From Hemitrygon akajei (taxonomy: Eukaryota), in the NCBI RefSeq assembly GCF_048418815.1, contig NC_133154.1:260043-324042 (forward strand): 64,000 nucleotides of DNA. Reading direction: 5' to 3'. The translations under genes and the position numbers were made by a program. This document shows, one piece after another, positions 27,421 to 61,189 of the stretch. Numbering within the stretch: position 1 is the first letter of the stretch; each line of letters begins with the position of its first letter. The notes under the pieces are model-generated. The model was given only the letters and a program-made list of their open reading frames with translations, was not told the DNA's origin and ran no database searches.

Positions 27421-30340
27421 AAGACCATAAAATATAGGAGCAGAAGGAGGCCATTCAGCCCAATGAGTCCACTCCGCCATTCAATCATGGGCTGATCCAA
27501 TCCTTCCAGTCATCCCCACTCCCCTGCCTTCACCCCATACCCTTTGAAGCCCTAGCTGATCAAGAACCTATCTATCTCTGCCTTAAATTCACCCAATGAC
27601 TTGGCCTCCACAGCTGTTCCACAGAGTTACCACTCTCTGACTAAAGTAATTTCTCTGCATCTCTGTTCTACATGGACGTCCTTCAATCCTGAAGTTGTAC
27701 CCTCTTTTGTCCTTGACTCGCCTACCATGGGAAATAACTTTGCCATATCTATTCTGTTCAGGCCTTTTAATTTTCAGAACGTTTCTATGAGATTCCCCCC
27801 TCATTCTCCTGAACTCCTGGGAATACAGTCCATGAGCTGCCAGACATTCCTCATACGGTAACCCTTTCATTCCTGGAATCATTCTCATCAATTTTCTCTG
27901 TACCTTCTCCAATGTTAGTATATACTTTCTAAAATAAGGAGCCCAAAGCTATACACAATACTTCGTGCAGTCTCATGAGTGCCTTATAGAGCCCCAACAT
28001 CACATCCCTGCTCTTATATTCTATACCTCCAAAAATGAATGCCAACGTTGCATTTTCCTTCTTCACAACATGGAAGTTAATCTTTAGGGTATCTTGCACA
28101 AGGACTCCCAAGTCCCTTTGCATCTCTGCATTTTGAATTCTCTCCCCATCTAAATAATAGTCTGCCTGTTTATTTCTTCCATCAAAGTGCATGACCATAC
28201 ACTTTACAAAATTTTATTTCATTTGCCACTTCTTTGCCCATTCCGCTAAACCACTGAAGTCTCTCTGCAGGCTCTCTGTTTCCTCAACACTACCTGCTAA
28301 ATTAGCCACAAATCCATTAATACTGTAGCCCAAATCATTGACATACATCGTAAAAAGCAGTGGTCCCAACACCGATCCCTGTGGAACTCCACTTGTTACC
28401 GGCAGCCAACCAGAATAGGATCCCTTTATTCCTACTCTCTGTTTTCTGCCAACCATCCAATGCTCTACCCATGCCAGTAAATTCTCTGTAATTCCATGGG
28501 CTCTTGTCTTGCTAAGCAGCCTCATGTGCGGCACCTCATCAAAGGCCTTCAGGAAATCCAAGTACACCACTTCTACCACATCTCCTTTGTCTACCGTGCT
28601 TGTAATTTCCTCAAAGAATTGCAGTAGGTTTGTCAGGCAGAATTTTCCTTTCAAGAAACCATGCTGGCTTTGGCCTATCTAGTCATGTGCCTCCAGGTAT
28701 TCTGTAACCTCATCCTTAACAATCAATTCCAACAACTTCCCAGCCACTGATGTCAGGCTAACAGGCCTATAGTTTCCTTTCTGCTGCCTCCCACCAGTAA
28801 AATACCAGTCATCCAGTACAATGCCAAAATCTATCAACTCTTGAAAGATCATTATTAATGCCTCCACAATCTCTCCAGCTACTTCCTTCAGAACCCAAGG
28901 GTGCATTGGATCAGGTCCTGAGCACCTTCTCAGTCGTAATTTTCACTGCACAAACTTCACTTCCCTGACACTCTTGAATGTCTGGTATACTGCAGATGTC
29001 TTCCACTGTGAAGACTGATGCAAAATAAGCATTCAGTTCTTCTGCCATCTCTGCATTTCTCTTTACAATATCTCCACCGTCATTTTGTATTGGTTCTCTA
29101 TCTACCCTCAACTTAGCTTTTACATACTTAAGAAAGCTTTTAGTATCTTCTTTGATATTAGTCACCAGCTTTCTTTCATAATTCATCTTAGTTTCTTAGT
29201 TTCCTTCTGCAAGTTTTTAAAAGCTTCCCAATCCTCTATCTTCCCACTAGCTCTGACTTCCTTGCATGCCCTCTCTTTTGCTTTTACTTTGGCTCTGACT
29301 TCACTTGTCAGTCATGGTAGTGTCCTTCTTCCATCTGAAAATTTCTTCTTATTTGGAATATATCTGTCTTGCACTTCCCTCATTTTTTGCAGAAACTCCA
29401 GTCATTGCTGCTCTGCAGGCTTCCTGCAAGTGTCCCTTTCCAGTCAACTTTGGCCAGTTCCCCTCTCATGCTATTGTAATTTCCTTTATTCCACTGAAAT
29501 ACCGACAATTTGGATTTTATTTTTTTCTCTCTCAAATTTCAATGCGAACTCAGTCATATTAAGTTCAAGCAACCTAGGGATTCCTTAACCTTAAGCTCTC
29601 TTATCACCTCCAGATCATTACACAACACCCAACCCAACAAGCTGTTCTAAAAAGCCATCCCTAAGACATTCTACAAATTATCTTTCTTGAGGTCCAGTAC
29701 TGACCTGGATTTCCCAATCCACTTTCATGTTAAAATCCCCAACAATTATCATGACATTGCCTTTCTGACATGCCTTTTCTATCTCCTGCTGCAATTTGTA
29801 ATCCACATCTTAGCTGCTGTTTGGAGGCCTGTATATAACTGCCATTAGGGTCCTTTTACACTTGCCATTTCTTAACTCAACCGATAGAGACTCTACACTT
29901 TCCAATCCTATGTCAACTCTTTCTAATGATTTAATTTTATTTGTTATACACAGAACAACACCACCCCCACTGCCTACTAACCTATCTTTCCAATACACCA
30001 TATATCCTTGGACATTCAGCTCCCAATGGCAGCCATCCTTCAGCCAAGTTTCAGAGATGGTCACAATGTCATATTTGCCACTCTGTATCTGCATTTCAAG
30101 ATTGTCCATTTTATTTCTTATGCAGCGTGCATTCAAAAATAACACTTTCAGTCCAGTATTTGTTGCTTTCTGTTTTAACTGCCCCACACCTCTATTGTAA
30201 CCCATGCCACTGGCTGTGTTTAAGCTTCGTCTCCTGCTGTTCTTTCTATCATATCTGTTGCGTGCTATCTTTGATTTATTTCTGTTTTCCCCTTCCTCAA
30301 TCCTATCACTCTGGTTCTTACCCCCTGCCAAATTAGTTTA
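27420..30340 (-). mobile_element. CR1-like LINE, nearly complete ORF2 (endonuclease N-terminus through 3' tail, ~2.9 kb; interrupted by frameshifts)
   Basis: Minus ORFs 29810-30331 (endonuclease: VLFLNARCIRNKMDNLEMQIQSGKYDIVTISETWLKDG...GGGVVLCI...YRPPNSS), 28911-29186 linker, 28679-28906 and 28214-28654 (RT: FDEVPHMRLLSKTRAHGI..., [19 protein letters not shown]), 27929-28198 and 27589-27912 (tail). Confidence 0.75.
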
Positions 30341-30620
30341 AACCCTCCCTAACAGCTCTATTAGATGTGCCTGCCAGTATATTGGACCCCTTTGTGTTCA
30401 GGTCTATAATCACTCTCTGGTTTCTTCCACAAAGCCAATGTCTAATCCAATTTAGTACCTCATCTTGAACACAGAGTGACTGAACCTTCATAACCAACCT
30501 CCCATGCGGAACCTTGTCAAATGCCTTACTAAAGTCCATGCAGACAATAGCCACTGCCTTGCCTTCATCCACTTTCCTGGTAATGCTTTTCAAAATCTCT
30601 ATAAGATTGATTAGACTTGA
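30340..30620 (-). mobile_element. CR1-like LINE RT fragment (separate copy)
   Basis: Minus ORF 30333-30698: ...KVDEGKAVAIVCMDFSKAFDKVPHGRLVMKVQSLCVQDEVLNWIRHWLCGRNQRVI. Confidence 0.5.
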
Positions 30621-30629
30621 CCTACCATA

Positions 30630-31700
30630 GAAAAATAAAAACATAGAAAACCTACAGCACCATACAGGCCCTTTGGCCCACAAAGCTGTGCCGAACATGT
30701 TCTTACCTTAGAAATTACCTAGGGTTACCCATAGCCCTCTATTTTTCTGAGCTCCATGTACCTGTCCAGGAGTCTCTTAAAAGACCCTATCATATCTGCC
30801 TCCACCACTGTCGCTGGCAGCCCATTCCACACACTCACCAATCTCTGCATAAAAGACCTACCTCCGACAGCTCCCCTGTACATACTTCCAAGCACTTTAA
30901 AACTGTGCCCTCTCGTGCTAGCCATTCCAGCCCTGGGAAAAAGCCTTTGACTATCCACACGATCAATGCTTCTCATCATCTTATACACTTCCATCAGGTC
31001 ACCTCTCATCCTCCGTCACTCCAAGGGAAAAAGGCCGAGTTCACTCAACCTATTCTCATAAGGCATGCTCCCCAATCCAGGCAATGTCCTTGTAAACCTC
31101 CTCCACACCCTTTCTATGGTTTCCACATCCTTCCTGTAGTGAGGCAACCAGAACTGAGCACAGTACTCCAAGTGGGGTCTGACCAGAGTCCTATATAGCT
31201 GTAATATTACCTTTTGGCTCCTAAACTCAATCCCACGATTGATGAAGGACAATGCACCATATGCCTTCTTAACCACAGAGCCAACCTGCACAACAGCTTT
31301 GAGTGTCCTATGGATTTGGACCCCAAGATCCCGCTGATCCTCCACACTGCCAAGAGTCTTACCATTAATACTACAAATGTTTGTACATTCTGCACGCACA
31401 AAGCCATGCTGACTATCCTTAATCAGTCTATAGCTATCCAAATACTTATATATCCAGCCCCTTAGAATACCTTCCAATAACTTTCCCATTACTGATGTCA
31501 GATTGTGACATTGGCCTACAGTGTACTGCTTTATGTTTACATCCGTTCTTTAACAGTGGAACAACAATGTCTATCCTGCAATCTGCTGGTACTTCTCCTG
31601 TCACTAAGGATGATTTAAATATCTCTGTTAGGGCCCTGGGAATTTCTGCACTTGCCTCCGTAGGGTCCAAGGGAACACATTGTCATGCCCTGGGGATTTA
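30630..31700 (-). mobile_element. CR1-like LINE, internally deleted (3' terminus with (CATAGAAA)-type repeats to RT start)
   Basis: Minus ORFs 30725-31009, 31016-31489 (…[27 protein letters not shown]…) and 31446-31670 (…TEIFKSSLVTGEVPADCRIDIVVPLLKNG…). Terminus aaaacatagaaaacctacagcac at 30636-30660. Confidence 0.6.
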
Positions 31701-31734
31701 TCCACACTGATTTGCCTCAGGATAGCAAACAACA

Positions 31735-34700
31735 GTTGTCATGGGAGATTTTAACTTCTACATAGATTGGGTGAATCAGGCAACACACACAAAATGCTGG
31801 TGGAACGCAGCAGACCCGGCAGCATCTATAGGAAGAAGTACAGTCATCATTTCAGGCCGAGACCCTTCGTCAGGACTAACTGAAAGAAAAGATAGTAAGA
31901 GATTTGAAAGTGGGAGGGGGAGGGGAAGATCCAAAATGATGGGAGAAGACAGGAGGGGGAGGGATGAAGCTAAGAGCTGGAAAGTTGATTGGCAAAAGGG
32001 ATACAGAGCTGGAGAAGGCAAAGGATCATGGGATGGGAGGCCTAGGGAGAAAGAAAGGGGGAGGGGAGCACCAGAAGGAGATGGAGAGCAGGCAAGGAGT
32101 GATGGTGAGAGGGACAGAGAGAGAAAAAAAGAGGGGGGAGTAAATAAATAAATAAATAAATAAGGGATGGGGTAAGAAGGGGAGGAGGGGCATTAATGGA
32201 AATTAGAGAAACCATCAGGTTGGAGGCTACCCAGCCGGTATATAAGGTGTTGCTCATCTAACCTGAGTGTGGCTTCATCTCGACAATAGAGGAGGCCATG
32301 GATGGACATATCAGAATGGAAATGGGACATGGAATTAAAATGTGAGACCACTGGGAGATCCGGCTTTCTCTGCCAGACAGAGTGCAGGTGTTCAGCGAAA
32401 CGGTCTCCTAGTCTGCCTCAGGTCTCACCAATATATAGAAGGCCACACCGGGGGCACCGGACACAGTATATCACACCAGGACTCACAGGTGAAGTGTTAC
32501 CACACCTGGAAGGACTGTCTGGGGCCCTGAATGGTGGTGAATGAGGAAGTGTAAGGGCAGGTGTAGCACTTGCTCCGCTTACAAGGATAAGTGCCGGGAG
32601 GGAGATTGGTGGGAAGGGATGGGGGGGACGAATGGACAAGGGAGTCACGCAGGGAGTGATCCCTGCGGAAAGCAGAAAGAGGGGGGAGGAGAAAGATGTG
32701 CTTGGTGGTGGGATCCCGTTGGAGGTGGCGGAAGTTACAGAGAATTATATATTGGACCTGGAGGAAGGTGGGGTGGTAGGTGAGGACAAGGGGAACCCTA
32801 TCCCTAGTGGGGTGGCTGGAGGATGGGGTGTGCAGATGTGTGTGAAATGAGACAGATGTGTTTGAGAGCAGAGTTGATGGTGGAGGAAGGGAAGCCCCTT
32901 TCTTTAAAAAAGGAAGACATCTCCTTCGTCCTGGAATAAAAAGCCTCATCCTGAGAGCAGATGCGGCAGAGACGGAGGAATTGCGAGAAGGGGGTGGCAT
33001 TTTTGCAAGAGACAGGGTGGGAAGAGGAATAGTCCAGGTAGCTGTGAGTCTGTAGTAGACATCAGTAGATAAGCTGTCTCCAGAGATAGAGACAGAAAGA
33101 TCAAGAAAGGGGAGGGAGGTGTCAGATGTGGACCAGATAAATTTGAGGGCAGGGTGAAAGTTGGAGCCAAATTTAATGAAGTCAACGAGCTCAGCATGCG
33201 TGCAGGAAGCAGCGCTAATGCAGTCATTAATGTAGCAAGGGAAAAGTGGGGGACAGATACCAGTATAGGCTTGGAACATGGACTGTTCCACAAAGCCAAC
33301 ACAAAGGCAGGCATAGCTGGGACCCATACTGGTGCCCATGGCTACACCTTTAGTTTGGAGAAAGTTGGGAGGAGCCAAAGGAGAAATTATTAAGCGTGAG
33401 GACTAATTCCGCTAGACGGAGGACAGTGGTGGTACAGGTTAGGTCTGGTACAACTGGTCTGGTACAACTGGTTAGGTCTGGTTAGGTTAGGTACAACTGG
33501 TTAGGTCTGGAATCCAAAAAGAAGCGGAGAGCTTTGAGACCTTCCTGGTGGGGGATGGAGGTATATAGAGACTAGACATCCATGGTGAAAATAAGGCATT
33601 GGGGGCCGGGGAACTTAAAATCATTGAAAAAATTCAGTGCGTGAGAAGTGTCACCAAGATAGGTGGGAAGGGATTGAACGGGGGGAGGGGAATAAAACAG
33701 TGTTGAGGTATGCAGAAGTGAGTTTGGTGGGGCAGGAGCAAGCTGAGACAATGGGTCCACTTGGAGAGGCAGGTTTGTGGATCTTGGGTAGGAGGTAGAA
33801 ATGGAAAGTGCGGGGTGTGGGAACTATGAGGTTGGTGGCAGTGGAGGGGAGATCCCCAGAGCTGATAAGGTTGGTGATGGTGTGGGAGACAATGGCTTGG
33901 TGCCACACATTTTAATTCCATGTCCCATTCCCATTCTGATATGTCAATCCAGGGCCTCCTCTACTGTCAAGTGTGGCCTTCTATATATCGGTGAGACCCA
34001 ATGCAGACTGGGAGACCATTTCGCTGAAAACCTACGCTCGGACTGCCAGAGAAAGCAGGATCTCCCAGAGGCCACACATTTTAATTCCATGTCCCAATCC
34101 TATTCTGATATGTCAATCCATGGCCTACTGTAAAAATGAAACCACATTCAGGTTAGAGGAACAACACCTTATATTCCGTCTGGGTAGCCTCCAACCTGAT
34201 GGCATGAATATTGATTTCTCTAACTTCCGTTAATGCCCCTCCTCCCCTTCTTACCCCATCCCTTACTTATTTATTTGTTTATTTTTATTTTATTCGCTCT
34301 CTGTCCCTCTCACAATCACTCCTTACCTGCTCTCCATCTTCCTCTGGTGGTCCCCTCCCCCTTTCTTTCTCCCTGGGCCTCCCATCCCATGATTCTCCCA
34401 CTTCTCCAGCTCTGTATCCCTTTTGCCAATCAACTTTCCAGCTCTTAGCTTCATCCCTCCCCCTCCTGTCTTCTCCCATCATTTTGGATCTTCCCCTCCC
34501 CCTCCCACTTTCAAATCTCTTACTATCTCTTCTTTCAGTTAGTCCTGACAAAGGGTCTCGGCCTGAAACATTGACTGTACTTCTTCCTAAAAGTGCTGCC
34601 TGGCCAGTTGTGTTCCACCAGCATTTTGTGTCAGTTTCTTGAATTTCCAGCATCTGCAGATCTCTTCGTGTTTGGGTGAATCAGGTTGGTCAAGGAAGTC

Positions 34701-37000
34701 TTGAGGAGGACTTCATAGAATGCATCTGTGATGGCTTTCTTGAGCAGCATGTTAGTGAACCTACAAGGGAAAATGCTATCTTAGATTTAGTCCTGTGCAA
34801 TGAGACAGGTAAGATTAACGATCTTATAGTCAGGGATCCTCTTGGAAAGAGTGATCATAATATGATTGAATTTTGCTTACAGATGTTGGATGAAATAGTT
34901 AGATCTAAAACTAGTATATTGAATAAGGGAGACTACAACAGGATACAGGAGGAGTTGGCTAATGTGGATTGGGAGCACAGGCTATTTGGTAGGACAGTTG
35001 AGGAACAGTGGAATACTTCCAAAGAGATTTTTCACAGTGCTCAACAAAAGTATATTCCAGTCAAAATTAAGGAAAGTAAGTGTGAGGAGAGGCAGCCTTG
35101 GATAACTAAGGAAATAAAAGATAGTATCAAATTAAAAGCTCATGTGTACAAAGTCACAAAGAGTAGTGGGAAACTGGGGGATTTGGAAAACTTTAAAAAG
35201 CAACAGAGAACAACTAAACAAGAAATAATGAAAGGGAAGATAGAGTATGAAAATAAATTAGCACAAAATATAAAAACAGATAACAAAAGTTTTTATAAAT
35301 ATATAAAGCAGAAGAGGGTGGCTAAAATCAACATAGGTCCCTTGGAAGATGAGAAGGGAAAATTAATATTGGGTGATAAGGAAATGGCTGAGGCACTGAA
35401 TGACTATATTGTGTCGGTCTTCATGGAGGAGGACACATCTAATATTCCAAAGAAGGATGTTATGGATGAAATGGGAGGTGAGGACCTCAATAAAATCACT
35501 GTCACTAAAGAGACAGTGATGAGCAAACTAGAGGGCCTGAAGGTAGATAAGTATCCTGGTCCTGATGGGGTGCATCCCAGGGTGCTGAAGGAATTGGCGG
35601 AGGTTATAGTAGATGTGTTGGTAACCATTTACCAAAATTCTCTAGACTCTGGGCAGGACCCGGCGGATTGGAAGACAACAAATGCCACACTACTTTTAGA
35701 AAAAGGATGGAGGCAAAAGACGGGCAACTATAGGCCAGTTAGCTAACATCTGTAGTCAGGAAAATGCTTGAAGCTGTCATTAAGGAAGAAATAGTGAAAC
35801 ATTTAGAAAGGAGTGGTTCCATTAGACAGATGCAGCATGGATTCAGAAAGGGCAGGTCCTGCTTGACAAACTTATTGGAGTTCTTTGAGGACATAATGAG
35901 TGCAGTGGATAGAAGGGAACAGGTGGATGTTGTATACTTGGATTTCCAGAAGGCATTCGATAAGGTGCCGCTCAAGAGACTTATAAATAAGATACGGATG
36001 CATGGAGTCGGAGGAAGTGCATTAGCGGATTGTGGATCGGAGGATAGTGGATTGGTTAACCAATAGAAGGCAGAGAGTTGGTATAAATGGGTGTTTCTCC
36101 AGTTGACAGTCAGTTGTGAGTGGGGTGCCTCAGGGGTTGATGCTGGACCTGCTTTACATTGATGATTTGGAAGAGGGGGCTGAGTGTAGCGTAACAAAAT
36201 TTGCTGATGACACTAAACTGAGTGGAAAAGAAAATTGTACAGAGGATGTGGAGAGTCTGCAGAGAGATATAGATAGGTTAAATGAGTGGGCCAAGGTCTG
36301 GCAGATGTAATACAACTTTGGTAAATGGGAGATCATCCACTTTGGAACGAATAATAGAAGAACGGAATATTATTTAAATGGTGAAAGAATGCAGCATGCT
36401 GTTGTGCAGAGGGACTTGGGTGTGCTTGTTCATGAATCACAAAAAGTTGGCTTGCAGGTACAACAGGTTATTAAGAAAGCAAACGGAATGTTGGCCTTCA
36501 TTGCTAGAGGGATTGAATTCAAGAGCAGGGAGGTTATGCTGCAACTATACAGGGTTCTGGTGAGGCCGCACCTGGAGTACTGCGTGCAGTTCTGGTCTCC
36601 ATACTTGAGGAAGGATATACTGGCTTTGGAGGCAGTGCAGAGGAGGTTAACCAGGTTGATTCCAGAGATGAAGGGGTTAACCTATGAGAAGAGATCAAGT
36701 CACCTGGTACTATACTCTCTGGAGTTCAGAAGAATGACAGGGGATCTCATAGAAACATACAAAATTTTGAAAGGGATAGATAAGACAGAAGTAGGAAAGT
36801 TGTTTCCATTGGTAGGTGAGACTAGAACTAGAGGACATTGCCTCAAGATTCAGGGGAGAAGATTTAGGACGGAGATGAAGAGAAACTGTTTTTCTCACAG
36901 AGTGGTGAATCTGTGGAATTCTCTGCCCAGGGAAGCAGTTGAGGCTTCCTCACCAAATATATTTAAGATACAGTAAGATATGTTTTTACATAGTAAGGGA
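31735..37000 (+). mobile_element. CR1-like LINE (endonuclease GDFN motif through 3' end) split by a PLE insertion; CR1 parts are 31735-31787 and 34664-37000
   Basis: Joining 31741-31787 to 34664 onward restores MGDFNFYIDWVNQ|VGQGSLEEDFIECICDGFLEQHVSEPTRENAILDLVLCNE...SDHNMIEF. Downstream ORFs 34676-35746 (356 aa, linker into RT: GLKVDKYPGPDGVHPRVLKE...NYRPVS), 35764-36066 (QHGFRKGRSCLTNLLEFFED...FQKAFDKVP), 36116-36310 (KFADDTK) and 36389-36976 (195 aa tail: [20 protein letters not shown]...RFRTEMKRNCFSHRVVNLWNSLP). Confidence 0.75.
31775..34663 (-). mobile_element. Penelope-like element (PLE; Neptune/Poseidon-type) with inverted pseudo-LTRs of about 650 bp, decayed RT and GIY-YIG endonuclease; flanked by 13-bp target site duplication TTGGGTGAATCAG
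   Basis: Minus ORF 33651-33908 (YLLPKIHKPASPSGPIVSACSCPTKLTSAYLNTVL) and 32497-33378 (FLQTKGVAMGTSMGPSYACLCVGFVEQ...CYINDCISAASCTHAELVDFIKFGSNFHPALKFIWSTSDTSLPFLDLSV) give RT motifs. 32418-32648 continuing to ~32270 reads ...VIYCVRCPRCGLLYIGETxGRLGDRFAEHLHSV...HFNSMSH..DMSIHGL, a GIY-YIG domain. 31785-32420 is the reverse complement of 33900-34650, and a second inverted partial GIY-YIG copy lies at 33950-34140 (plus). The 13-mer ttgggtgaatcag is present at both borders. Confidence 0.75.
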
Positions 37001-55059: not shown

Positions 55060-56400
55060 ATTTGATGGCTCTGGGCCTGTATTTGCTGGAGTTTAGAAGA
55101 ATGGGGTTGGGGTGGATCTTATTGAAGTCTATCTAATATTGAAAGGCCTAGATTAGAGTGAAGGTATAGAGAATGTTTTTATCAGTGGGGGAGTCCAGGA
55201 CCAGATGACATAGCCTCAAATAGTAAAACATCCCTTTAGAACAGAGATGAGGAGGAATTTCTTTAGCCAGATAATGGTGAATCTGTGGAATTTATTACCA
55301 CAGACTGCTGTAGAGGCCAAGTGATTGATCATATTTAAAACAGAGGTAGGTAAGTTCTTGATTAGTAAGGGTGTCAAAGGTTATTGGGAGAAGGCAGGAG
55401 AATGGTGTTGAGAAGGATAATAGATGATTCTTGGTTGAATGGCGGCTGACTCAGTGGGTCAAATGACCTCATTCTACTCCTCTGTCTTATGGTCTGAAGC
55501 AGGGGTTCCCAATCTGGGGTCCACAGACTCCTTGTTTAAGGATATCGTTCCATGGCATAAAAAATGTTCGGGAACCCCTGGACTAAAGAATAGCAATGAA
55601 CAGAAAGACACTGGGATCCAAGTCCACAGCTCCCTGAAAGTGGGAACACAGGATAATTGGGTGGTAAAGAAGCCGTATGGCATAGTTGCCATACGGCAGA
55701 CTGGAAGGCATAGGTGGTGGTGTGGTTCTGTTGGTAAGAAATGGAATTACGTCTTTAGAGAGAGGTGACATAGGGTGAAAGAATGTTGAATATTTGTGGG
55801 TGGAGTTAACAAACTGCAAGGGTAAAAAAACTATTATGGGAATCATATATATAGACCTCCAAACATTAGCCAAAATGTGGGGTTGAGATTGCAAAGAAAA
55901 GGCATGTAATAAGGGTAATGTCACAATTATAATGGGAGGACTTCAATATGCAAGGGGATTGGGAAAATCAGGTAGGTGTCAGATTGCAACAGAGGGAATT
56001 TGTTGAATCCCTATGAGATGGCTTTTTAGAGCAACTTGTGCTTGAGACTACTGGGAGAAAGGCTATCTTAGATAGGGTGTTGTGTTATAATCCAGATCCT
56101 ATTAACATATACAAAATGTTGGAGGAACTCAGCAGGCCAGGCAGCATCTATGAAAAAAAGTACAGACAATGTTTCAAGCCGATCTTATTAGGGAGCTTAA
56201 AGGAACCCTTAGGAGACAGTGATCATAATATGATTGAATTCATACTGCAGTTTGAAAGGGAGAAGCTCACATGTATCTGTATCGCAATGGAATAACAGGA
56301 ATTACATAGGCAAGAGAGAAGAGCTTGCCAAGGTGGATTGGAGGAGGATACAGGCAGAGATGACGGCAGAGCAGAGATGGCGAAGTTTCTTGGAATAGTT
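55060..56400 (+). mobile_element. CR1-like LINE fragments: 3' tail piece (55060-55500) and endonuclease-domain piece (55500-56400) carrying an 88-bp PLE-terminus-derived insert
   Basis: Tail: …GLYLLEFRRMG…FFSQIMVNLWNLLPQTAVEAK. Endonuclease: …YRPPN…GDFN-region…LEQLVLETTGRKAILDRVLCYNPDP[insert]GSLKEPLGDSDHNMIEF. Confidence 0.55.
56098..56185. mobile_element. 88-bp PLE-terminus-derived mini-element (half-hairpin) inserted in a CR1 endonuclease domain
   Basis: acatatacaaaatgttggaggaactcagcaggccaggcagcatctatgaaaaaaagtacagacaatgtttcaagccgatcttattagg matches the PLE terminal sequence at 31785-31890 and interrupts the reading frame of the host LINE. Confidence 0.55.
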
Positions 56401-59094
56401 CACAGGGCCTGGGGTACATCCGTCCGGTCAGGGTGATTTATCCAACTTGATGCTTTACATAAGCTCCAGCACATCCTCTTCTTTAATATCTACATGCTCA
56501 AGCTTTTCAGTCTGCTGCAAGTCATCACTACAATCACTAAGATCCTTAAGTATTTATTAAGTACCTCTGCTATTTCCTCCGGTTCCATACACACTTTCCC
56601 ATTGTCACACTTGATAGGTTCTATTCTTTCATGTCTTATCCTCTTGCTCTTCACATACTTGTAGAATGCCTTGAGGTTTTCCTTAATTCTGCCCGCCAAG
56701 GCCTTCTCATGGTCCCTTCTGGCTCTCCTAATTTATTTCTTAAGCTCCTTCCTAGTAGCCTTATAATCTTCTAGATCTCTAACATTACCTAGTTCTCTGA
56801 ACCTTTTGTAAGCTTTTCTTCTCTTCTTGACTAGATTTATTACAGCCTTTGTACACCACGGTTCCTGTACCCTACCATAACTTCCCTGTTTCATTGGAAC
56901 GTACCTATACAGAACTCTACACAAATATCCTCTGACTATTTGCCATATTTCTTCTGTACTTTTCCCTGAGAACATCTGTTTCCAATTTAAGCCTCTAATT
57001 TCCTGCCTGATAGCCTCAGAATTCCCCTTACTCCAATCAAATGCTCTTCTAACTTGTCTGTTCCAATTTCTCTCCAATGCTATTGTAAAGGAGATAGAAT
57101 TATGATCACTATGTACAAAATGCTCTCCCACTGAGAGATCTGGCACCTGACCAGGTTCATTTCCCAATACCAAATGAAGTACAGTCTCTCTTCTTGTAGG
57201 CTTATCTACATACCGTACTGTGTCAAGAAACCTTCCTGAACACACCTAACAAACTCCACCCCATCTAAACCCCTCGCTCTAGGAAGATGCCAATTGATAT
57301 TTGGGAAATTAAAATCTCCCATCACGACAACTCTTATTATTACATCTTTCCAGGATCTGTTTCCCTATCTGCTCCTTGATATCCCTGTTACTATTGGGTG
57401 GCCTATAAAAAACACCCAGTAATGTTATTGACGCCTTTCTGTTCCTAATCTCCACCCACAGAGACTCCGTAGACAATCCCTCCATGGCGTCCACCTTTTC
57501 TGCAGCCGTGACACTATCTCTGATCAACAGTGCCACGCCCTCACCTCTTTTGCCTCCCTTCCTGTCCTTTCTGAAACATCTAAAACCCAGCACTTGAAGT
57601 AACCAATCCTGTCCCTGAGCCATCCAAGTCTCTGTAATGGCCACCACATCATAGCTCCAAGTACTGATCCACGCTCTAAGTTCATCCACTTTGTTCACAA
57701 CACTACTTGCATTAAGATAGACACATCTCAAGCCTTCGGTCTGAGTGCATCCCTTCTCTATCACCTGCCTATCCTCCCTCTCACACTGTCTACAAGCTTT
57801 CTTTATTTGTGAGCTAACCTCCTCTTCCCCAGTCTCTTCAGTTCAGTTCCCACACCCCCCCCCAACAATTCTAGTTTAAACTCTCCCCAGTAGCCTTAGC
57901 AAACCTCACCGCCAGGATATTGGTTCCCCTGGGATTCAAGTGCAACCAATCCTTTTTGTACAGGTCACTCCTGACCCAAAATAGGTCCCAATGATCCAGA
58001 AATATGAAATCCCTGCCCTCTGCTCCAAACCCTCTGCCATGCATTTATCCTCCACCTCATTCTGTTCCTATTCTCACTGTCGCGTGCACAGGCAGTAATC
58101 CCGATATTACTACATTTGCGGTCCTGCTACTCAACTTCCTTCCTAACTCCCTGTAGTCTTTTTTCAGGAAGTCTTCCCTTTTCCTGTCATTGGTACCAAT
58201 ATGTACTACGTCCTCTGGCTGTTCTCCCTCCCACTGCAGGATATCTTGGACGCAATCTGAAACATCCTGGACCCTGGCACCTGGGAGGCAAACTACTGCG
58301 TCCACAGAATTGCCTGTCTGATCCCCTAACTATAGATTCCTTTATCACTACAGCCTTTCTCTTCCCTTCCCTACCCCTCTGAGCCACAGGGCCAGACCCT
58401 GTGCCAGAGGCACAGCCACTGCCGCTTCCCCCAGGTAGGCTGTCACCCCCCAACAGTACTCAAAAAGTACTTATTGTCAAGGGGTACAGCCACAGGGGTA
58501 CTTTCTAGTACCTGACTCTTCCCCTTCCCTCTCCTGACTGTGACCCACTTGTCTGTCTCCCATGGCCCCAGTGTGACCACCTGTCTATAACTCCTCTCTG
58601 TCACCTCCTTGCTCTCCCTGACTAGGTGAAGGTCATCGAGCTGCATCTCCAGGCCCCCCACATCTGACACCGAACAAAGAAAACTGGCCTCACATGCATA
58701 CTTCCTACCTCACCTCGTCCCGTTACTGCCTGAGCCTGTTGAGCCAAAGCCCTACCACTCTGCTGCCTCTCACTCTGCTGCCCGCTGGATACGGCGGTCT
58801 TCTTTTTAAACCTTTCATGCTCTACTGGCTGACGTCACATGCCTGCGCAGTCTCGCCTCTCTTTAAACTGAGTAGTAAAATAAAAACTCACTTTGCTCTG
58901 AAAAATCAGCCGTTCACTCGCAGCCTTCTTGCTCCGAATTAAAAACCATTGAAGATTACTTGCCTTTTAAAACTTACGTGCTCTACTAGCTGATGTCATG
59001 CGCCTGCGCAGTCTCATCTCTCTTTAACCCGAGTACTAAAAAAACTCCCTTTGCTCTGAAAAATCAACAGTTCATTCACAGCCTTCTTGCTCCG
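56400..59094 (-). mobile_element. CR1-clade LINE 5' part with preserved 5' end: 5'UTR tandem monomers, ORF1 (coiled-coil-like N-terminus plus SGNH esterase), ORF2 endonuclease and linker; 3' truncated at ~56400
   Basis: Minus ORFs 58443-58670 (ORF1 start MSDVGGLEMQLDDLHLVRESKE…), 58187-58453 and 58057-58305 (…VVCLPGARVQDVSDCVQDILQWEGEQPEDVVHIGTNDRKREDFLKKDYRELGRKLSSRTANVVISGLLPV), 57309-57764 (endonuclease: VYLNASSVVNKVDELRAWISTWSYDVVAITETWMAQG…YRPPNSNRD), 56733-57245 and 56490-56699 (linker). Confidence 0.75.
58780..59094 (-). promoter_or_regulatory. LINE 5'UTR: two tandem ~160-bp monomers, each with a CRE-like palindrome (TGACGTCA at 58830-58837; TGATGTCA at 58991-58998) and a GCGCCTGCGCA / GCCTGCGCA (NRF1-like) motif
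   Basis: Self-similarity of 58780-58940 and 58940-59100 (…ctctact.gctga.gtca..gcctgcgcagtctc…tttgctctgaaaaatca…cagccttcttgctccgaatt). Position directly upstream of the ORF1 ATG. Confidence 0.45.
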
Positions 59095-59232: not shown

Positions 59233-59684
59233 TCTTATCTGTTTTCACTGTGGAAGACACTAGCGGTGTGCCAGAGGTCTGTGAGTGTCAGGGAGCAGGG
59301 GTGAGTGCCATTGCTATTACAAAGGAAAAAGTGCTAGGCAAACCGAAAGGTCTTATGGTGGATAAGTCACCTGGACCAGAAGGACTACATCCTAGAGTCC
59401 TGAAAAAAGTTGAAGAGATAATGGCTGCATTGGTCATGATCTTTCAAGAATCATTTTATTCTGATATGGTCCTGGAGGACTGGAAAATTACAAATGTCCC
59501 TCCACTCTTTAAAAAGAAAAGAAGGTAAAAGAAAGGAAACTATAAGCCAGTTAGCCTAACCTCAGCGGTTAGAAAAGTGTTGAAGTATATTATTAAGGAT
59601 GAGGTTTTGGGGTACTTGGAGATTAATAATAAAATAAGTCAAAGTCAGCATGGTTTTTGTAAAAAGAAATCTTGCCTGATAAAC

Positions 59685-59820
59685 TCAGCAGATCGGGCAG
59701 CATCTGTGGAAACGAACGCGGATGACTGTTCGTTTCCACAGATGCTGCCTGACCTGCTGAGTTCCTCCAGCTTGTTGTATGTGTTGCTTTGACCCCAGCA
59801 TCTTCAGCGTACTTTGTGTT
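59685..59820. mobile_element. PLE-terminus-derived hairpin element (short perfect stem gcagcatctgtggaaacgaacg / cgttcgtttccacagatgctgc) inserted in the CR1 RT domain
   Basis: gcagatcgggcagcatctgtggaaacgaacgcggatgactgttcgtttccacagatgctgcctgacctgctgagttcctccagcttgttgtatgtgttgc, followed by the PLE tail-like tttgaccccagcatcttcagcg. Confidence 0.55.
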
Positions 59821-60516
59821 GCCTGATAAATCTGTTGGGGGTTCTTCGAGGAAGTAACAAGCAGGGTGGACAAAGGAGAGACAGTGAATGTCACTTACTT
59901 GGACTTCCAGAAGGCATTTGATAAGGTGCTACACATGAGGTAGCTTAAGAAGATAAAATCCTATAGTGTTACAGGAAAAATACTGGCATGGATGGAGGAA
60001 TGGCTGACAAGCAGGAGGTAGCAAGTGGGAATAAAAGAGGCCTTTTATGGTTGGCTGCTCCTGTCTACTGGTGTTACTCAGGGGTCAGTATAGGAACTGC
60101 TACTTTTCACATTGTTTGTCAATTATTTAGATAGTGGAATTGATGGCTTTGTGGCAAAGCTTGATGATGATACAAAGATAGCTTGAGTGGTAGATAGTGC
60201 AGAGAAAGCAATGCAATTGCAGCAGGACTTAGACAAATTGGAAGAATGGGCAAAAAAGTGGCAGATAGAATATAGTGTTGGGAAATGTATGATAATACAT
60301 TCTGGTAAAAGTAATCATAGTGTGAATTATTATTTAAATGGGGAAAAGGTCAAACATCAGAGGTTCAGAGGGACTTAGGAGTCCTCGTGTAAAACACCCT
60401 GAAGGTTAATTTACAGGTTGAGTCTGTGGTAAAGAAGGCAAATGCAATGTTGGCACTTATTTCAAGGGGAATAGAATACAAAAGCAAGGAGATAATGCTG
60501 AGCAACACACACAAAT

Positions 60517-60840
60517 TGCTGGAGGAACTCAGCAAACCAGACAGCATCTATGGAAAAGAGTACAGTCAACATTTTGGGCTGAGACCCTTTAACAGGTCCA
60601 GAACTACAGGGCACAGCCTCAAAATTGAAGGACAACCTTTTAGAACAAAAGTAAGGAGAATTTTTTTTTTACCCAGAGAGTAGTGAATCTGTGGAATGTT
60701 TTGCCGCAGGTCCTGCTGAAGGGTCTCAGCCCGAAATGCCAACTGTACTCTTTTCCATAGATGCTGCCTAGCCTACTGAGTTCGTCCAGCGTTTTGTGTG
60801 TGTTGCTTGTATTTCCAGCATCTGCAGATTTTCTCTTGTT
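60517..60840. mobile_element. PLE-terminus-derived inverted-repeat element: ~90-bp arms (60517-60605 and 60708-60800) around a ~100-bp CR1-tail-like spacer, plus PLE tail (60800-60840)
   Basis: Right arm is the reverse complement of the left arm (acacacaaattgctggaggaactcagcaaaccagacagcatctatggaaaagagtacagtcaacattttgggctgagaccctttaacaggtcc). The spacer encodes GHSLKIEGQPFRTKVRRIFF..RVVNLWNVLPQ. Confidence 0.55.
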
Positions 60841-61189
60841 TGAGATAATGCTGAGCCTTTGTAAGACACTAGTCAGGCTGCACATGGAGTATTGTCAACA
60901 TTTTTGGGCCCCATATCTCAGGAAGGATGTGTTGTCATTGGAGAAAATCCAGAGTAGATCCACAAGATTCTGGGACATATGAACAGTGCATATATTTAAG
61001 GCGGAAGTTGACGTTTTCCTGATCAGTCAGAGCTTCAAAGGATATGGCAAGAAGGCAGGTGTATGGGATCAGCCATGATGGGATAGCAGAGCAGACTCAA
61101 TGGGCTGAATGGCCTAATTCTGCTTTCATTGGACAGCTAATTGAGTCTAAGGGTTGGCCTTGACTATATTTCAAAAATATGAAACATCC

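What the first reader, a model, noticed from the sequence alone, without database searches (positions are those of the whole stretch)
31790..31880. Candidate minimal hammerhead ribozyme motif in the PLE pseudo-LTR (sense strand = minus): CUGACGA–AGG/loop/CCU–GAAA
The reverse complement of 31815-31855 reads …gtcCUGACGAagggucucggccuGAAAugaugacuguac…. This is the CUGANGA box, a short helix II (AGG/CCU, 7-nt loop), then GAAA. PLEs are known to carry minimal hammerhead ribozymes in their terminal repeats, and these act as dimers through a palindromic helix-III loop; a GUAC palindrome follows here. The same segment, with mutations CUGACAA or CUGCUGA, is kept in the other pLTR copy (34545-34590 plus) and in the solo hairpin elements. 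I could not construct a convincing helix I/III by eye, so this is a hypothesis.
Basis: partly seen in the sequence, partly recalled or inferred. Interest (0 to 1): 0.65.

Follow-up and report, generated by a model that had tools for sequence, protein, structure and literature searches.

The report
Decayed hammerhead ribozyme relic in retrotransposon
The flagged sequence is a mutated, almost certainly dead copy of the small self-cleaving "minimal hammerhead" RNA that Penelope-like retrotransposons are already known to carry, so it is a correctly spotted but ordinary feature.

Summary
The CUGACGA…GAAA motif is real. It lies on the minus strand at 31873-31850; the whole relic spans 31881-31838. 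By itself the motif is at chance level (2 matches against 4.1 expected). It sits in the 3' UTR of a 5'-truncated, head-to-head Penelope-like element (PLE, 31781-34671, 14-bp target-site duplication).

I collected 36 homologous copies from five other elasmobranch genomes (Hypanus, Mobula, Rhincodon, Chiloscyllium, Stegostoma). Their consensus is GUC-CUGANGA-A-GGGU(loop)GCCC-GAA-ACGU-C|GAC. This is the published PLE "minimal hammerhead": an extra unpaired A after A9, a G10.1-C11.1 pair, no loop 3, and a palindromic ACGU that forms helix III only in a dimer.

- Nine of the 40 copies pass every core rule.
- N7 and the helix II loop vary, and pairs 2.1-1.1 and 10.4-11.4 covary.
- All four window copies fail. 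The flagged one has U16.1→A plus three CpG-decay changes. The others have lost G8, A6 or G12.
- Rfam misses even the intact copies, so "no Rfam hit" does not refute the idea.

The helix II register and the helix III assignment (the GUAC palindrome) were wrong.

Verdict: a relic of a known kind of ribozyme, of low interest.

The parts
31838..31881 (-). Flagged copy A of the PLE minimal hammerhead (relic): AGUUAGUC CUGACGA A GGGUCUCGGCCU GAA AUGAU GACUGUAC
   Evidence: Sequence read. The covariance model R1, built from other species only, scores 63.3 bits, E 3.5e-15, at 31833-31881.
31874..31878 (-). Helix I, 5' strand (UAGUC, positions 2.5-2.1)
   Evidence: Pairs with 31845-31841 (GACUG): C-G, U-A, G-C, A-U, U.G. 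Pair 2.1-1.1 covaries across copies as CG 21, UA 8, UG 4.
31867..31873 (-). Catalytic box C3-A9 (CUGACGA), intact in this copy
   Evidence: C3 and A9 are invariant and U4 and G5 are at least 90% conserved across 40 copies.
31866..31866 (-). Unpaired A between A9 and G10.1, a hallmark of metazoan PLE min-HHRs
   Evidence: Invariant in 40 of 40 copies. The feature is listed in PMC4209133.
31854..31865 (-). Helix II hairpin GGGU-CUCG-GCCU (10.1-10.4, tetraloop, 11.4-11.1); C11.1 has decayed to U, giving a G.U pair
   Evidence: Helix II cells are 90% paired. Pair 10.4-11.4 is UG 22, CG 9, UA 6.
31851..31853 (-). G12 A13 A14 of the catalytic core, intact
   Evidence: A13 and A14 are invariant across 40 copies.
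31846..31850 (-). Decayed helix III and cleavage site: AUGA-U here, ancestral A15.1 C15.2 G16.2 U16.1 C17 (ACGU-C). The cut would fall between 31846 and 31845. U16.1>A at 31847 is the disabling change.
   Evidence: Intact copies read GAAACGUC|GAC (L019:3712, L010:11569, L011:1728).
31841..31845 (-).
34537..34585 (+). Copy B in the opposite arm: CUGACAA (G8>A at 34550), GAAACAUU (15.2-16.2 is a C.A mismatch)
   Evidence: R1 scores 65.2 bits; defects listed.
60705..60753 (+). Copy C: CUGCUGA (A6>C), GAAAUGCC (U16.1>C)
   Evidence: R1 scores 42.4 bits.
60555..60603 (-). Copy D: CUGUUAA (A6>U, G8>A), AAAA (G12>A)
   Evidence: R1 scores 39.9 bits.
31781..34671 (.). Penelope-like element insertion. 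Two 5'-truncated copies are joined head-to-head: a minus-strand RT-EN fragment plus 3' UTR on the left, and a plus-strand EN C-terminus plus 3' UTR on the right. It is inserted in a LINE.
   Evidence: Inverted arms 31776-32448 and 33971-34642 are 86-93% complementary. The RT fragment hits ray and shark RT/GIY-YIG proteins. The EN C-terminus is 82% identical to a Mobula PLE ORF.
31767..31780 (+). Left target-site duplication TTGGGTGAATCAGG
   Evidence: Direct repeat D5, 100% identical.
34672..34685 (+). Right target-site duplication TTGGGTGAATCAGG
34643..34671 (+). Optional PLE 'tail' (about 29 nt), present on arm B and absent from arm A
   Evidence: Of 12 ray-family copies, 6 have the tail and 6 lack it. 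The tail concept is described in PMC11167929.
59684..59818 (+). Short snap-back insertion of the same 3' module without the ribozyme core. The sense arm starts at 59724, which corresponds to G1.1. TSD TTGCCTGATAAA at 59672-59683 and 59819-59830.
56104..56182 (-). 5'-truncated copy that starts inside the helix II 3' strand (ggcuuGAAACAUUGUC…)

Best explanation
Positions 31881-31838 (minus strand) are a mutationally inactivated copy of the minimal type-I hammerhead ribozyme (min-HHR) that Penelope-like retrotransposons carry in their terminal repeat, here the 3' UTR.

**The intact form.** In the elasmobranch family the motif reads 5'-(UA)GUC | CUGANGA | A | GGGU-loop-GCCC | GAA | A-C-G-U | C^GAC(UG)-3'. 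Helix I has 3-5 bp and helix II has 4 bp closing a tetraloop. There is no loop 3. The self-complementary ACGU can form helix III only between two copies, giving a double hammerhead. In that fold helix I also forms in trans. Cleavage falls after GUC.

**Likely function (inferred from published work on other PLEs, not shown here).** The two ribozymes of a tandem pLTR-ORF-pLTR transcript pair up. Probably helped by the element's own protein, they cut the multimeric or read-through transcript. In vitro the ribozyme is not needed for target-primed reverse transcription.

**State of the window copies.** The element probably carried a working or nearly working motif when it inserted. Where the two arms differ, one of them keeps the consensus base. 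Four CpGs lie inside the ribozyme (C7-G8, C11.1-G12, C15.2-G16.2, C17-G1.1), so methylation-driven decay erodes it quickly.
- Copy A now has C11.1>U, C15.2>U, U16.1>A and C17>U.
- Copy B has G8>A and G16.2>A.
- The two arms are inverted, so one transcript could not hold two sense copies.

The window copies are therefore fossils without ribozyme activity.
For: **Context**
- The motif lies 65 nt (arm A) or 99 nt (arm B) upstream of the 3' end of a TSD-flanked insertion.
- The insertion's ORF fragments match ray and shark proteins with RVT_1 plus GIY-YIG domains.
- Across ray-family copies the 3' ends show the optional PLE 'tail' in 6 of 12 (PMC11167929).

**Homologues**
- Forty copies were aligned: 4 from the window and 36 from Hypanus, Mobula, Rhincodon, Chiloscyllium and Stegostoma loci.
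- C3, A9, the extra A, A13 and A14 are invariant. U4, G5, G10.1 and A15.1 are at least 90% conserved.
- The upstream flank differs completely between ray and shark families.
- Nine of 40 copies satisfy every core rule, with N7 = C, A or U among them.

**Structure**
- 77.8% of cells pair in the proposed helices, against 17-49% when partners are slid by 1-3 columns.
- The covariation score is 0.277 against at most 0.097 for slid partners.
- Pair 2.1-1.1 is CG 21, UA 8, UG 4. Pair 10.4-11.4 is UG 22, CG 9, UA 6.

**Match to the published definition**
- The motif has the unpaired nucleotide between A9 and 10.1, the G10.1-C11.1 pair, and palindromic 15.2-16.2 (PMC4209133).

**Model from other species**
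- A covariance model built without any window sequence hits exactly the four window sites at 40-65 bits.

**Decay**
- Defects fall mainly at CpG positions: 15.2-16.2 in 12 copies, G8 in 10, G12 in 10.
- The double-hammerhead design energy is -17.9 kcal/mol for the consensus, -2.2 for copy A and -5.2 for copy B.
Against: - No Rfam hammerhead model scores here. The same is true of intact relatives, so this test says little.
- Nearest-neighbour folding prefers other structures: a monomer hairpin in which GACG of the core pairs with CGUC, and a fully extended duplex for the dimer.
- Helix I is weak in the shark families, with only 2-3 clear pairs.
- The shuffle control is only moderately exceeded (10 of 500 shuffles for percent paired, 21 of 500 for covariation score). 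The copies are related by descent, and I derived the structure from these same sequences.
- No cleavage data exist for this family.
- Published metazoan min-HHRs cleave poorly in vitro. PAc ribozyme mutants still insert in vitro, so the biological role remains inferred.
Confidence: 0.88

Rival explanations
1. Chance resemblance: CUGACGA and GAAA occur 13 nt apart by accident, and the segment has nothing to do with hammerheads.
For: The bare pattern is no more frequent than chance (2 observed against 4.09 expected). There is no Rfam hit.
Against: The orthologous position in PLE 3' UTRs of five other species holds a complete min-HHR, and 9 of 40 copies are defect-free. The invariant bases are exactly the core bases, N7 varies freely, and the helices covary. 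The location in a PLE terminal region is where such ribozymes are expected.
Confidence: 0.03
2. The flagged copy is still an active or weakly active ribozyme. It would act in trans with another copy or tolerate a non-U base at 16.1.
For: Copy A keeps C3-A9, G12-A14, helix I and helix II. Only one core rule is broken. From my own recollection, not checked here, some hammerhead constructs cleave GAC-type triplets at a few percent of the GUC rate.
Against: A15.1 faces A16.1, and AUGA is not self-complementary, so the 4-bp trans helix III is lost (design energy -2.2 against -17.9 kcal/mol). The partner copy in the same element is inverted and has G8>A. Even intact metazoan min-HHRs cleave poorly.
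Confidence: 0.05
3. The conserved module is mainly a protein-binding or structural stem-loop of the PLE RNA, or a promoter element of the pLTR. On this view the hammerhead-like core is conserved for that reason and not for catalysis.
For: The monomer minimum-free-energy fold is one continuous hairpin: helix I, then GACG/CGUC, then helix II. In the Anolis PLE the ribozyme cleaved only when protein was present, ribozyme mutants did not affect insertion in vitro, and no RNA-seq ends were found at the cut site. The downstream AGAUGCUGCCUGGCCUGCUG is conserved as strongly as the core.
Against: The GACG/CGUC pairing is not maintained when N7 = A (GAAG against CGUC), yet such copies are otherwise intact. 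Bases that would be unpaired in the hairpin (C3, U4, A9, A13, A14) are the most invariant. C3/G8 mutants and their compensatory double mutant behave as expected for a true hammerhead in the Anolis element.
Confidence: 0.07
4. A C/D-box snoRNA-like element, suggested by a weak SNORD111 match at 31817-31859 with an AUGAUGA C-box.
For: Rfam gives SNORD111 at 21.1 bits, E = 2.8.
Against: The score is far below the gathering score of 46. The AUGAUGA arose in this copy alone, by CpG decay of ACGUCGA. The other 39 copies lack it.
Confidence: 0.01

Closest known systems
Minimal hammerhead ribozymes (min-HHR) of metazoan Penelope-like elements (Cervera & De la Peña 2014, PMC4209133; Lünse, Weinberg & Breaker, RNA Biol., PMC5785218, cited in PMC6765202 but not readable here)
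   Same: Both are type-I hammerheads located in the PLE terminal repeat. Both have the CUGANGA and GAA boxes, an unpaired nucleotide between A9 and 10.1, a G10.1-C11.1 pair, no loop 3, and palindromic 15.2-16.2, so helix III forms only in a dimer. In both, many degenerate and solo copies are scattered through the genome, some as nearby pairs on opposite strands.
   Different: Helix II here has 4 bp plus a tetraloop, whereas several invertebrate families have 6-8 bp. This family comes from elasmobranch PLEs, which I did not find described in the held literature. It holds four CpGs inside the motif. The window copies themselves are mutated and inverted relative to each other.
Hammerhead of the Anolis carolinensis Poseidon element PAc (Frangieh et al. 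2024, PMC11167929)
   Same: Both are vertebrate PLEs with the ribozyme in the pLTR a short distance upstream of the reverse-transcription start sites. Both have two alternative 3' ends separated by an optional tail of about 30 nt. In the window the ends lie at +65 and +99 from the cut. In PAc the start sites lie about 85-92 nt downstream of the cut.
   Different: In PAc the ORF start codon lies upstream of the cut site. Here the only conserved AUG is about 22 nt downstream of the cut, and its role is untested. PAc activity was measured experimentally. Nothing here was.
Canonical type-I hammerheads of animal satellite, SINE-like and non-LTR retrozyme repeats (Rfam Hammerhead_1)
   Same: They share the catalytic core and the open helix I, and they depend on dimers because helix III is short.
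   Different: Canonical forms have a 1-2 bp helix III with a 2-4 nt loop and loop I/loop II tertiary contacts. This motif has neither, and Rfam models do not detect it.

Membership tests
Hammerhead ribozyme (catalytic core rules) | C3 U4 G5 A6 N7 G8 A9 box | tested here: met
   Copy A has CUGACGA at 31873-31867. Copies B, C and D fail this feature (G8>A; A6>C; A6>U with G8>A).
Hammerhead ribozyme (catalytic core rules) | G12 A13 A14 followed by A15.1 | tested here: met
   Copy A has GAAA at 31853-31850.
Hammerhead ribozyme (catalytic core rules) | A15.1-U16.1 pair and an N-U-H cleavage triplet | tested here: not met
   Copy A reads G-A-U (A at 16.1, position 31847). The ancestral state, still present in intact relatives, is G-U-C.
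Hammerhead ribozyme (catalytic core rules) | Helices I and II flanking the core, supported by covariation | tested here: met
   Helix I is UAGUC/GACUG. Helix II is GGGU/GCCU. 77.8% of cells pair against 17-49% when slid, and pairs 2.1-1.1 and 10.4-11.4 covary. Caveat: I derived the structure from these same sequences.
Hammerhead ribozyme (catalytic core rules) | Match to a curated Rfam hammerhead covariance model | tested here: not met
   No hit at the gathering threshold or at E<=10. Intact relatives are also missed, so this test cannot discriminate for min-HHRs.
Hammerhead ribozyme (catalytic core rules) | Site-specific self-cleavage | not testable with these tools
   This needs in vitro transcription and cleavage assays.
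PLE minimal hammerhead (min-HHR, Cervera & De la Peña 2014) | Located in the terminal repeat (pLTR or 3' UTR) of a Penelope-like element | tested here: met
   The motif lies downstream of the GIY-YIG ORF end, 65-99 nt from the 3' end of a TSD-flanked insertion.
PLE minimal hammerhead (min-HHR, Cervera & De la Peña 2014) | Unpaired nucleotide between A9 and G10.1, and a G10.1-C11.1 closing pair | tested here: met
   The extra A is invariant (40 of 40 copies). Pair 10.1-11.1 is GC in 21 copies and GU in 14. Copy A has G.U after a CpG C>U change.
PLE minimal hammerhead (min-HHR, Cervera & De la Peña 2014) | No or minimal helix III, with palindromic 15.2-16.2 (works as a dimer) | tested here: not met
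   The family consensus is ACGU (CG in 16 copies, UG in 11). Copy A reads AUGA, which is not self-complementary. The feature is met by the family but not by this copy.
PLE minimal hammerhead (min-HHR, Cervera & De la Peña 2014) | A second copy in the same orientation nearby, allowing a double hammerhead in one transcript | tested here: not met
   The two copies of this element are inverted, as are the pair at 60555-60753.
Penelope-like retrotransposon | [quoted passage not shown] | tested here: met
   The window ORF fragments themselves give no Pfam hit. They are 60-63% identical (RT fragment) and 82% identical (EN C-terminus) to ray proteins. Relatives P0043 and P0029 carry RVT_1 plus GIY-YIG.
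Penelope-like retrotransposon | Target-site duplication, 5' truncation or inverted 5' repeat, and an optional 30-40 bp 3' tail | tested here: met
   The TSD is 14 bp and the arms lie head-to-head. The tail is present in 6 of 12 ray-family copies.
C/D-box snoRNA (SNORD111) | Score at or above the Rfam gathering threshold | tested here: not met
   21.1 bits against 46, E = 2.8.

The most novel reading that the evidence does not exclude
The intact elasmobranch version of this motif is an active, protein-assisted dimeric hammerhead whose cut defines the 5' end of RNAs that are then reverse-transcribed. Genomic copies would then preserve a footprint of cleavage in vivo. One short snap-back insertion in this window (59684-59818) has its sense arm starting exactly at G1.1, the first base after the predicted cut. 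About 3 of 11 truncated copies in the sampled loci start within 0-4 nt of the cut. A genome-wide pile-up of 5' ends at that base would be the first in vivo evidence for PLE hammerhead cleavage, which RNA-seq failed to show for the Anolis element.
Probability: 0.12. Interest if true: 0.5.

Novelty: new member of a known kind. Interest (0 to 1): 0.18.

Why it matters
In itself it matters little. Hammerhead motifs are reported in every PLE examined so far, and these copies are dead.

Three minor points are useful:
1. The work documents a min-HHR family in ray and shark PLEs and gives a clean consensus, with intact examples in Mobula, Hypanus, Rhincodon, Chiloscyllium and Stegostoma that could be tested at the bench.
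2. Rfam hammerhead models miss this class completely, so a scan pipeline that relies on Rfam will under-call them. The small covariance model built here finds them.
3. Four CpGs sit inside the ribozyme, so in a methylated vertebrate genome it is destroyed soon after insertion. This explains why most genomic copies look 'almost hammerhead'.

Tried and rejected
- **Rfam, gathering threshold, whole window:** nothing.
- **Rfam, E<=10:** run on 31500-35000, on 59600-60900, on three related loci and on a 111-nt stretch around an intact copy. No hammerhead family appeared. The hits were chance matches only: SNORD111, mir-103 and PrrB. The 59684-59760 hairpin hit many unrelated miRNA-precursor families on both strands, which marks it as a generic long hairpin.
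- **Public collection scans:** I searched metagenome and viral contigs with the downstream anchor GATGCTGCCTGNCCTGCTGAG. Only chance bacterial matches came back (L001-L009), with no elasmobranch DNA.
- **Protein search with the EN C-terminus:** this gave mostly proteins without contigs. The one NCBI hit (P0021) could not be located on a contig.
- **Pfam on the window's own ORF fragments:** no hit, because they are too decayed.
- **First dimer design:** my first dot-bracket was wrongly nested, with helix I drawn in cis. I corrected it to the double-hammerhead topology with helices I and III in trans.
- **Full-length tandem element:** I looked in L011 and L019 to see whether the ribozyme also precedes the ORF start. 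None is present in the fetched loci.
- **5' ends at the cut site:** I tested whether 5' ends of truncated copies cluster at the cut. There are too few copies (11), BLAST alignment ends are fuzzy, and the result is only suggestive.
- **GUAC as the dimerisation palindrome:** rejected, because it is not conserved outside one subfamily.
- **Weak covariance-model hits at 58890 and 59048 (16 bits):** these belong to an unrelated direct repeat.
Full report
**1. The observation**

On the minus strand the window reads …cagUUAGUC CUGACGA A GGGUCUCGGCCU GAAA UGAU GACUGUAC…. The CUGACGA…GAAA span is 31873-31850. The sub-coordinates in the finding's text (31815-31855) are about 21 nt too low, but the string lies inside the stated range of 31790-31880.

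- 34537-34585 (+), with CUGACAA.
- 60705-60753 (+), with CUGCUGA.
- 60603-60555 (-), with CUGUUAA.

As a bare pattern, CTGANGA-N8-20-GAAA is not above chance: 2 matches against 4.09 expected. The argument therefore has to rest on context and comparison.

**2. Context**

The motif lies in an insertion at 31781-34671, flanked by a perfect 14-bp target-site duplication TTGGGTGAATCAGG (31767-31780 and 34672-34685). The insertion sits inside a LINE.

It consists of two 5'-truncated copies of one retroelement joined head-to-head, with arms 31776-32448 and 33971-34642 that are 86-93% complementary. Each arm ends with the C-terminus of an ORF followed by about 310 nt of 3' UTR holding the motif.

Evidence that the element is a Penelope-like element (PLE):
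- The window ORF fragments are too decayed for Pfam.
- The RT fragment finds ray and shark proteins at 52-63% identity (Mobula hypostoma, Hypanus sabinus, Rhincodon typus and others).
- The conceptual C-terminus is 82% identical to the GIY-YIG region of a Mobula ORF.
- Relatives carry RVT_1 plus GIY-YIG, which is the PLE architecture.
- Arm B extends about 29 nt further (34643-34671) than arm A. Among 12 ray-family copies, 6 have this extension and 6 lack it. This matches the optional 'tail' between two reverse-transcription start sites described for PLEs (PMC11167929).

**3. Relatives**

Metagenome and viral scans gave only chance hits. Looking up ten of the homologous proteins returned about 21 kb each from five elasmobranch genomes (L010-L019). 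A profile search of these loci recovered 36 further copies that cover the motif.

Intact copies read cagUUAGUC-CUGACGA-A-GGGUCUCGGCCC-GAA-ACGUC-GACUGUAC. Examples are L019:3712, L010:11569 and L011:1728.

All four window copies are explained by CpG decay of GAAACGUCGAC. They read UGAUGAC, CAUUGAC, UGCCAAC and UGUUGAC.

**4. What the consensus is**

It fits the published minimal hammerhead of metazoan PLEs point by point (PMC4209133):
- the CUGANGA and GAA boxes;
- an unpaired nucleotide between A9 and 10.1 (the A, invariant in 40 of 40 copies);
- a G10.1-C11.1 pair;
- no loop 3;
- a palindromic 15.2-16.2 step, so that A15.1-C-G-U16.1 can form helix III only between two molecules;
- a GUC cleavage triplet.

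In the 40-copy alignment, C3, A9, the extra A, A13 and A14 are invariant. U4, G5, G10.1 and A15.1 are at least 90% conserved. N7 is C, U, A or G. The helix II loop varies, and the upstream flank is unrelated between ray and shark families.

For the proposed pairs:
- 77.8% of cells pair, against 17-49% when partners are slid.
- The covariation score is 0.277 against at most 0.097 for slid partners.
- Pair 2.1-1.1 is CG 21, UA 8, UG 4.
- Pair 10.4-11.4 is UG 22, CG 9, UA 6.

The shuffle control is exceeded only moderately (10-33 of 500 shuffles). The copies share descent, and the structure was read from the same data, so I treat covariation as supportive and not decisive.

Nine of 40 copies, from all five other species, satisfy every core rule.

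**5. State of the window copies**

- Copy A, the flagged one, keeps C3-A9, G12-A14, helix I and helix II. It has C11.1>U, C15.2>U, U16.1>A (31847) and C17>U. The cleavage triplet is therefore GAU, and AUGA is not self-complementary.
- Copy B has G8>A and a C.A mismatch at 15.2-16.2.
- Copy C has A6>C and U16.1>C.
- Copy D has A6>U, G8>A and G12>A.

Where arms A and B differ, one of them retains the consensus base. The motif was therefore probably intact or nearly intact at insertion. This is an inference.

Four CpGs lie inside the ribozyme (C7G8, C11.1G12, C15.2G16.2, C17G1.1). The most frequent defects across all copies fall at these positions.

**6. Folding**

In the double-hammerhead topology, helices I and III form in trans. 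The design energy is -17.9 kcal/mol for the consensus, against -2.2 for copy A and -5.2 for copy B.

Unconstrained folding prefers other structures: a monomer hairpin using GACG/CGUC, and an extended duplex for the dimer. That is common for hammerheads and is not informative about the catalytic fold. It does keep open a rival reading, namely a structural or protein-binding hairpin.

**7. Covariance models**

Rfam finds no hammerhead in the window. It also finds none in loci with intact copies, even in a 111-nt stretch at E<=10.

Model R1, built from the 29 best external copies with helices I and II, hits the four window sites at 65.2, 63.3, 42.4 and 39.9 bits. The next best hit scores 15.9 bits. 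This shows homology to the module. It does not show activity.

**8. Mechanism**

Shown here:
- sequence conservation of the hammerhead core;
- the position of the motif in a PLE 3' region;
- decay of the window copies.

Taken from the literature:
- PLE hammerheads act as dimers and cleave poorly alone.
- In the Anolis element, cleavage needed the element's protein, followed C3/G8 genetics, and was dispensable for insertion in vitro. No RNA-seq ends were seen at the cut.

Inferred: in active ray and shark elements the two ribozymes of a tandem transcript pair and cut it after GUC. The window copies are inverted and mutated, and do nothing.

**9. Comparison and novelty**

This is a member of a known kind, the PLE min-HHR. 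I did not find the host group described in the held literature. A 2026 preprint reports hammerhead-bearing retrozymes in one chondrichthyan.

It differs from some invertebrate families in having a short, 4-bp helix II. It differs from the Anolis element in the position of the nearest conserved AUG.

Interest is low.

**10. The most novel reading not excluded**

Genomic 5' ends may record cleavage in vivo. The snap-back element at 59684-59818 has its sense arm starting exactly at G1.1, and about 3 of 11 truncated copies start within 0-4 nt of the cut. The sample is far too small to conclude anything.

Noticed in passing
window 34643-34671 versus 31781; L010-L019 copies: The 3' ends fall into two classes. 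Six of 12 ray-family copies stop right after GUGUGUUGC(U). The other six carry a further ~30-nt tail, UGAAUUUCCAGCAUCUGCAGAUUUCCUCGUGUUUG. This matches the optional PLE 'tail' between two reverse-transcription start sites (PMC11167929).
   Followed up: partly
window 59684-59818 (TSD TTGCCTGATAAA at 59672-59683 and 59819-59830): This is a short snap-back (hairpin) insertion of the PLE 3' module without the ribozyme core. Its sense arm begins at 59724, exactly the base after the predicted hammerhead cut (G1.1). That could be a footprint of a cleaved RNA template, or a coincidence.
   Followed up: partly
window 60504-60841 (TSD GAGATAATGCTGAGC at 60489-60503 and 60842-60856): This is a composite insertion. 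An antisense copy of the module (60504-60603) is followed by about 100 nt of a CR1-like LINE 3' coding fragment (60604-60704) and then a sense copy (60705-60841). Both copies start about 3 nt before C3. The layout suggests template switching during reverse transcription.
   Followed up: no
window 31823-31814 and 34594-34603; all loci: The stretch AGAUGCUGCCUGGCCUGCUG, about 20 nt after the cut, is conserved as strongly as the ribozyme core in rays and sharks. It contains an AUG whose frame stays open to the 3' end. It may be the ORF start or a protein-binding or RT-initiation hairpin (AUGCUG…CAGCAU). I did not test this.
   Followed up: no
window 59684-59760: The long perfect hairpin gives sub-threshold Rfam hits to many unrelated miRNA-precursor families on both strands (best 48 bits against a gathering score of 100). 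This is the generic behaviour of a long hairpin and does not indicate a specific miRNA.
   Followed up: yes
window 31817-31859 (-): There is a weak SNORD111-like match (21 bits, E = 2.8). The C-box-like AUGAUGA was created in this copy alone, by CpG decay of ACGUCGA.
   Followed up: yes
window 33423-33510; 33902-33963 versus 34071-34132: The centre of the PLE insertion holds four loosely tandem ~26-nt repeats. There is also a 62-nt internal duplication of the endonuclease-coding segment next to the head-to-head junction. Both are probably by-products of template jumps.
   Followed up: no
window 58890-58934 and 59048-59092: Two direct copies of a ~45-nt sequence (…ctttgctctgaaaaatca.c.gttca.tc.cagccttcttgctccgaatta) lie 158 nt apart. 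They gave the only other weak hits to my covariance model (16 bits) and look unrelated to the PLE module.
   Followed up: no
window 29800-31760 and 34676-37000: The PLE is inserted in a CR1/L2-like LINE, with ORF2-type RT fragments on both sides. The window is dense in nested retroelements typical of elasmobranch genomes. The closest relatives of the PLE are in rays (Mobula, Hypanus).
   Followed up: partly
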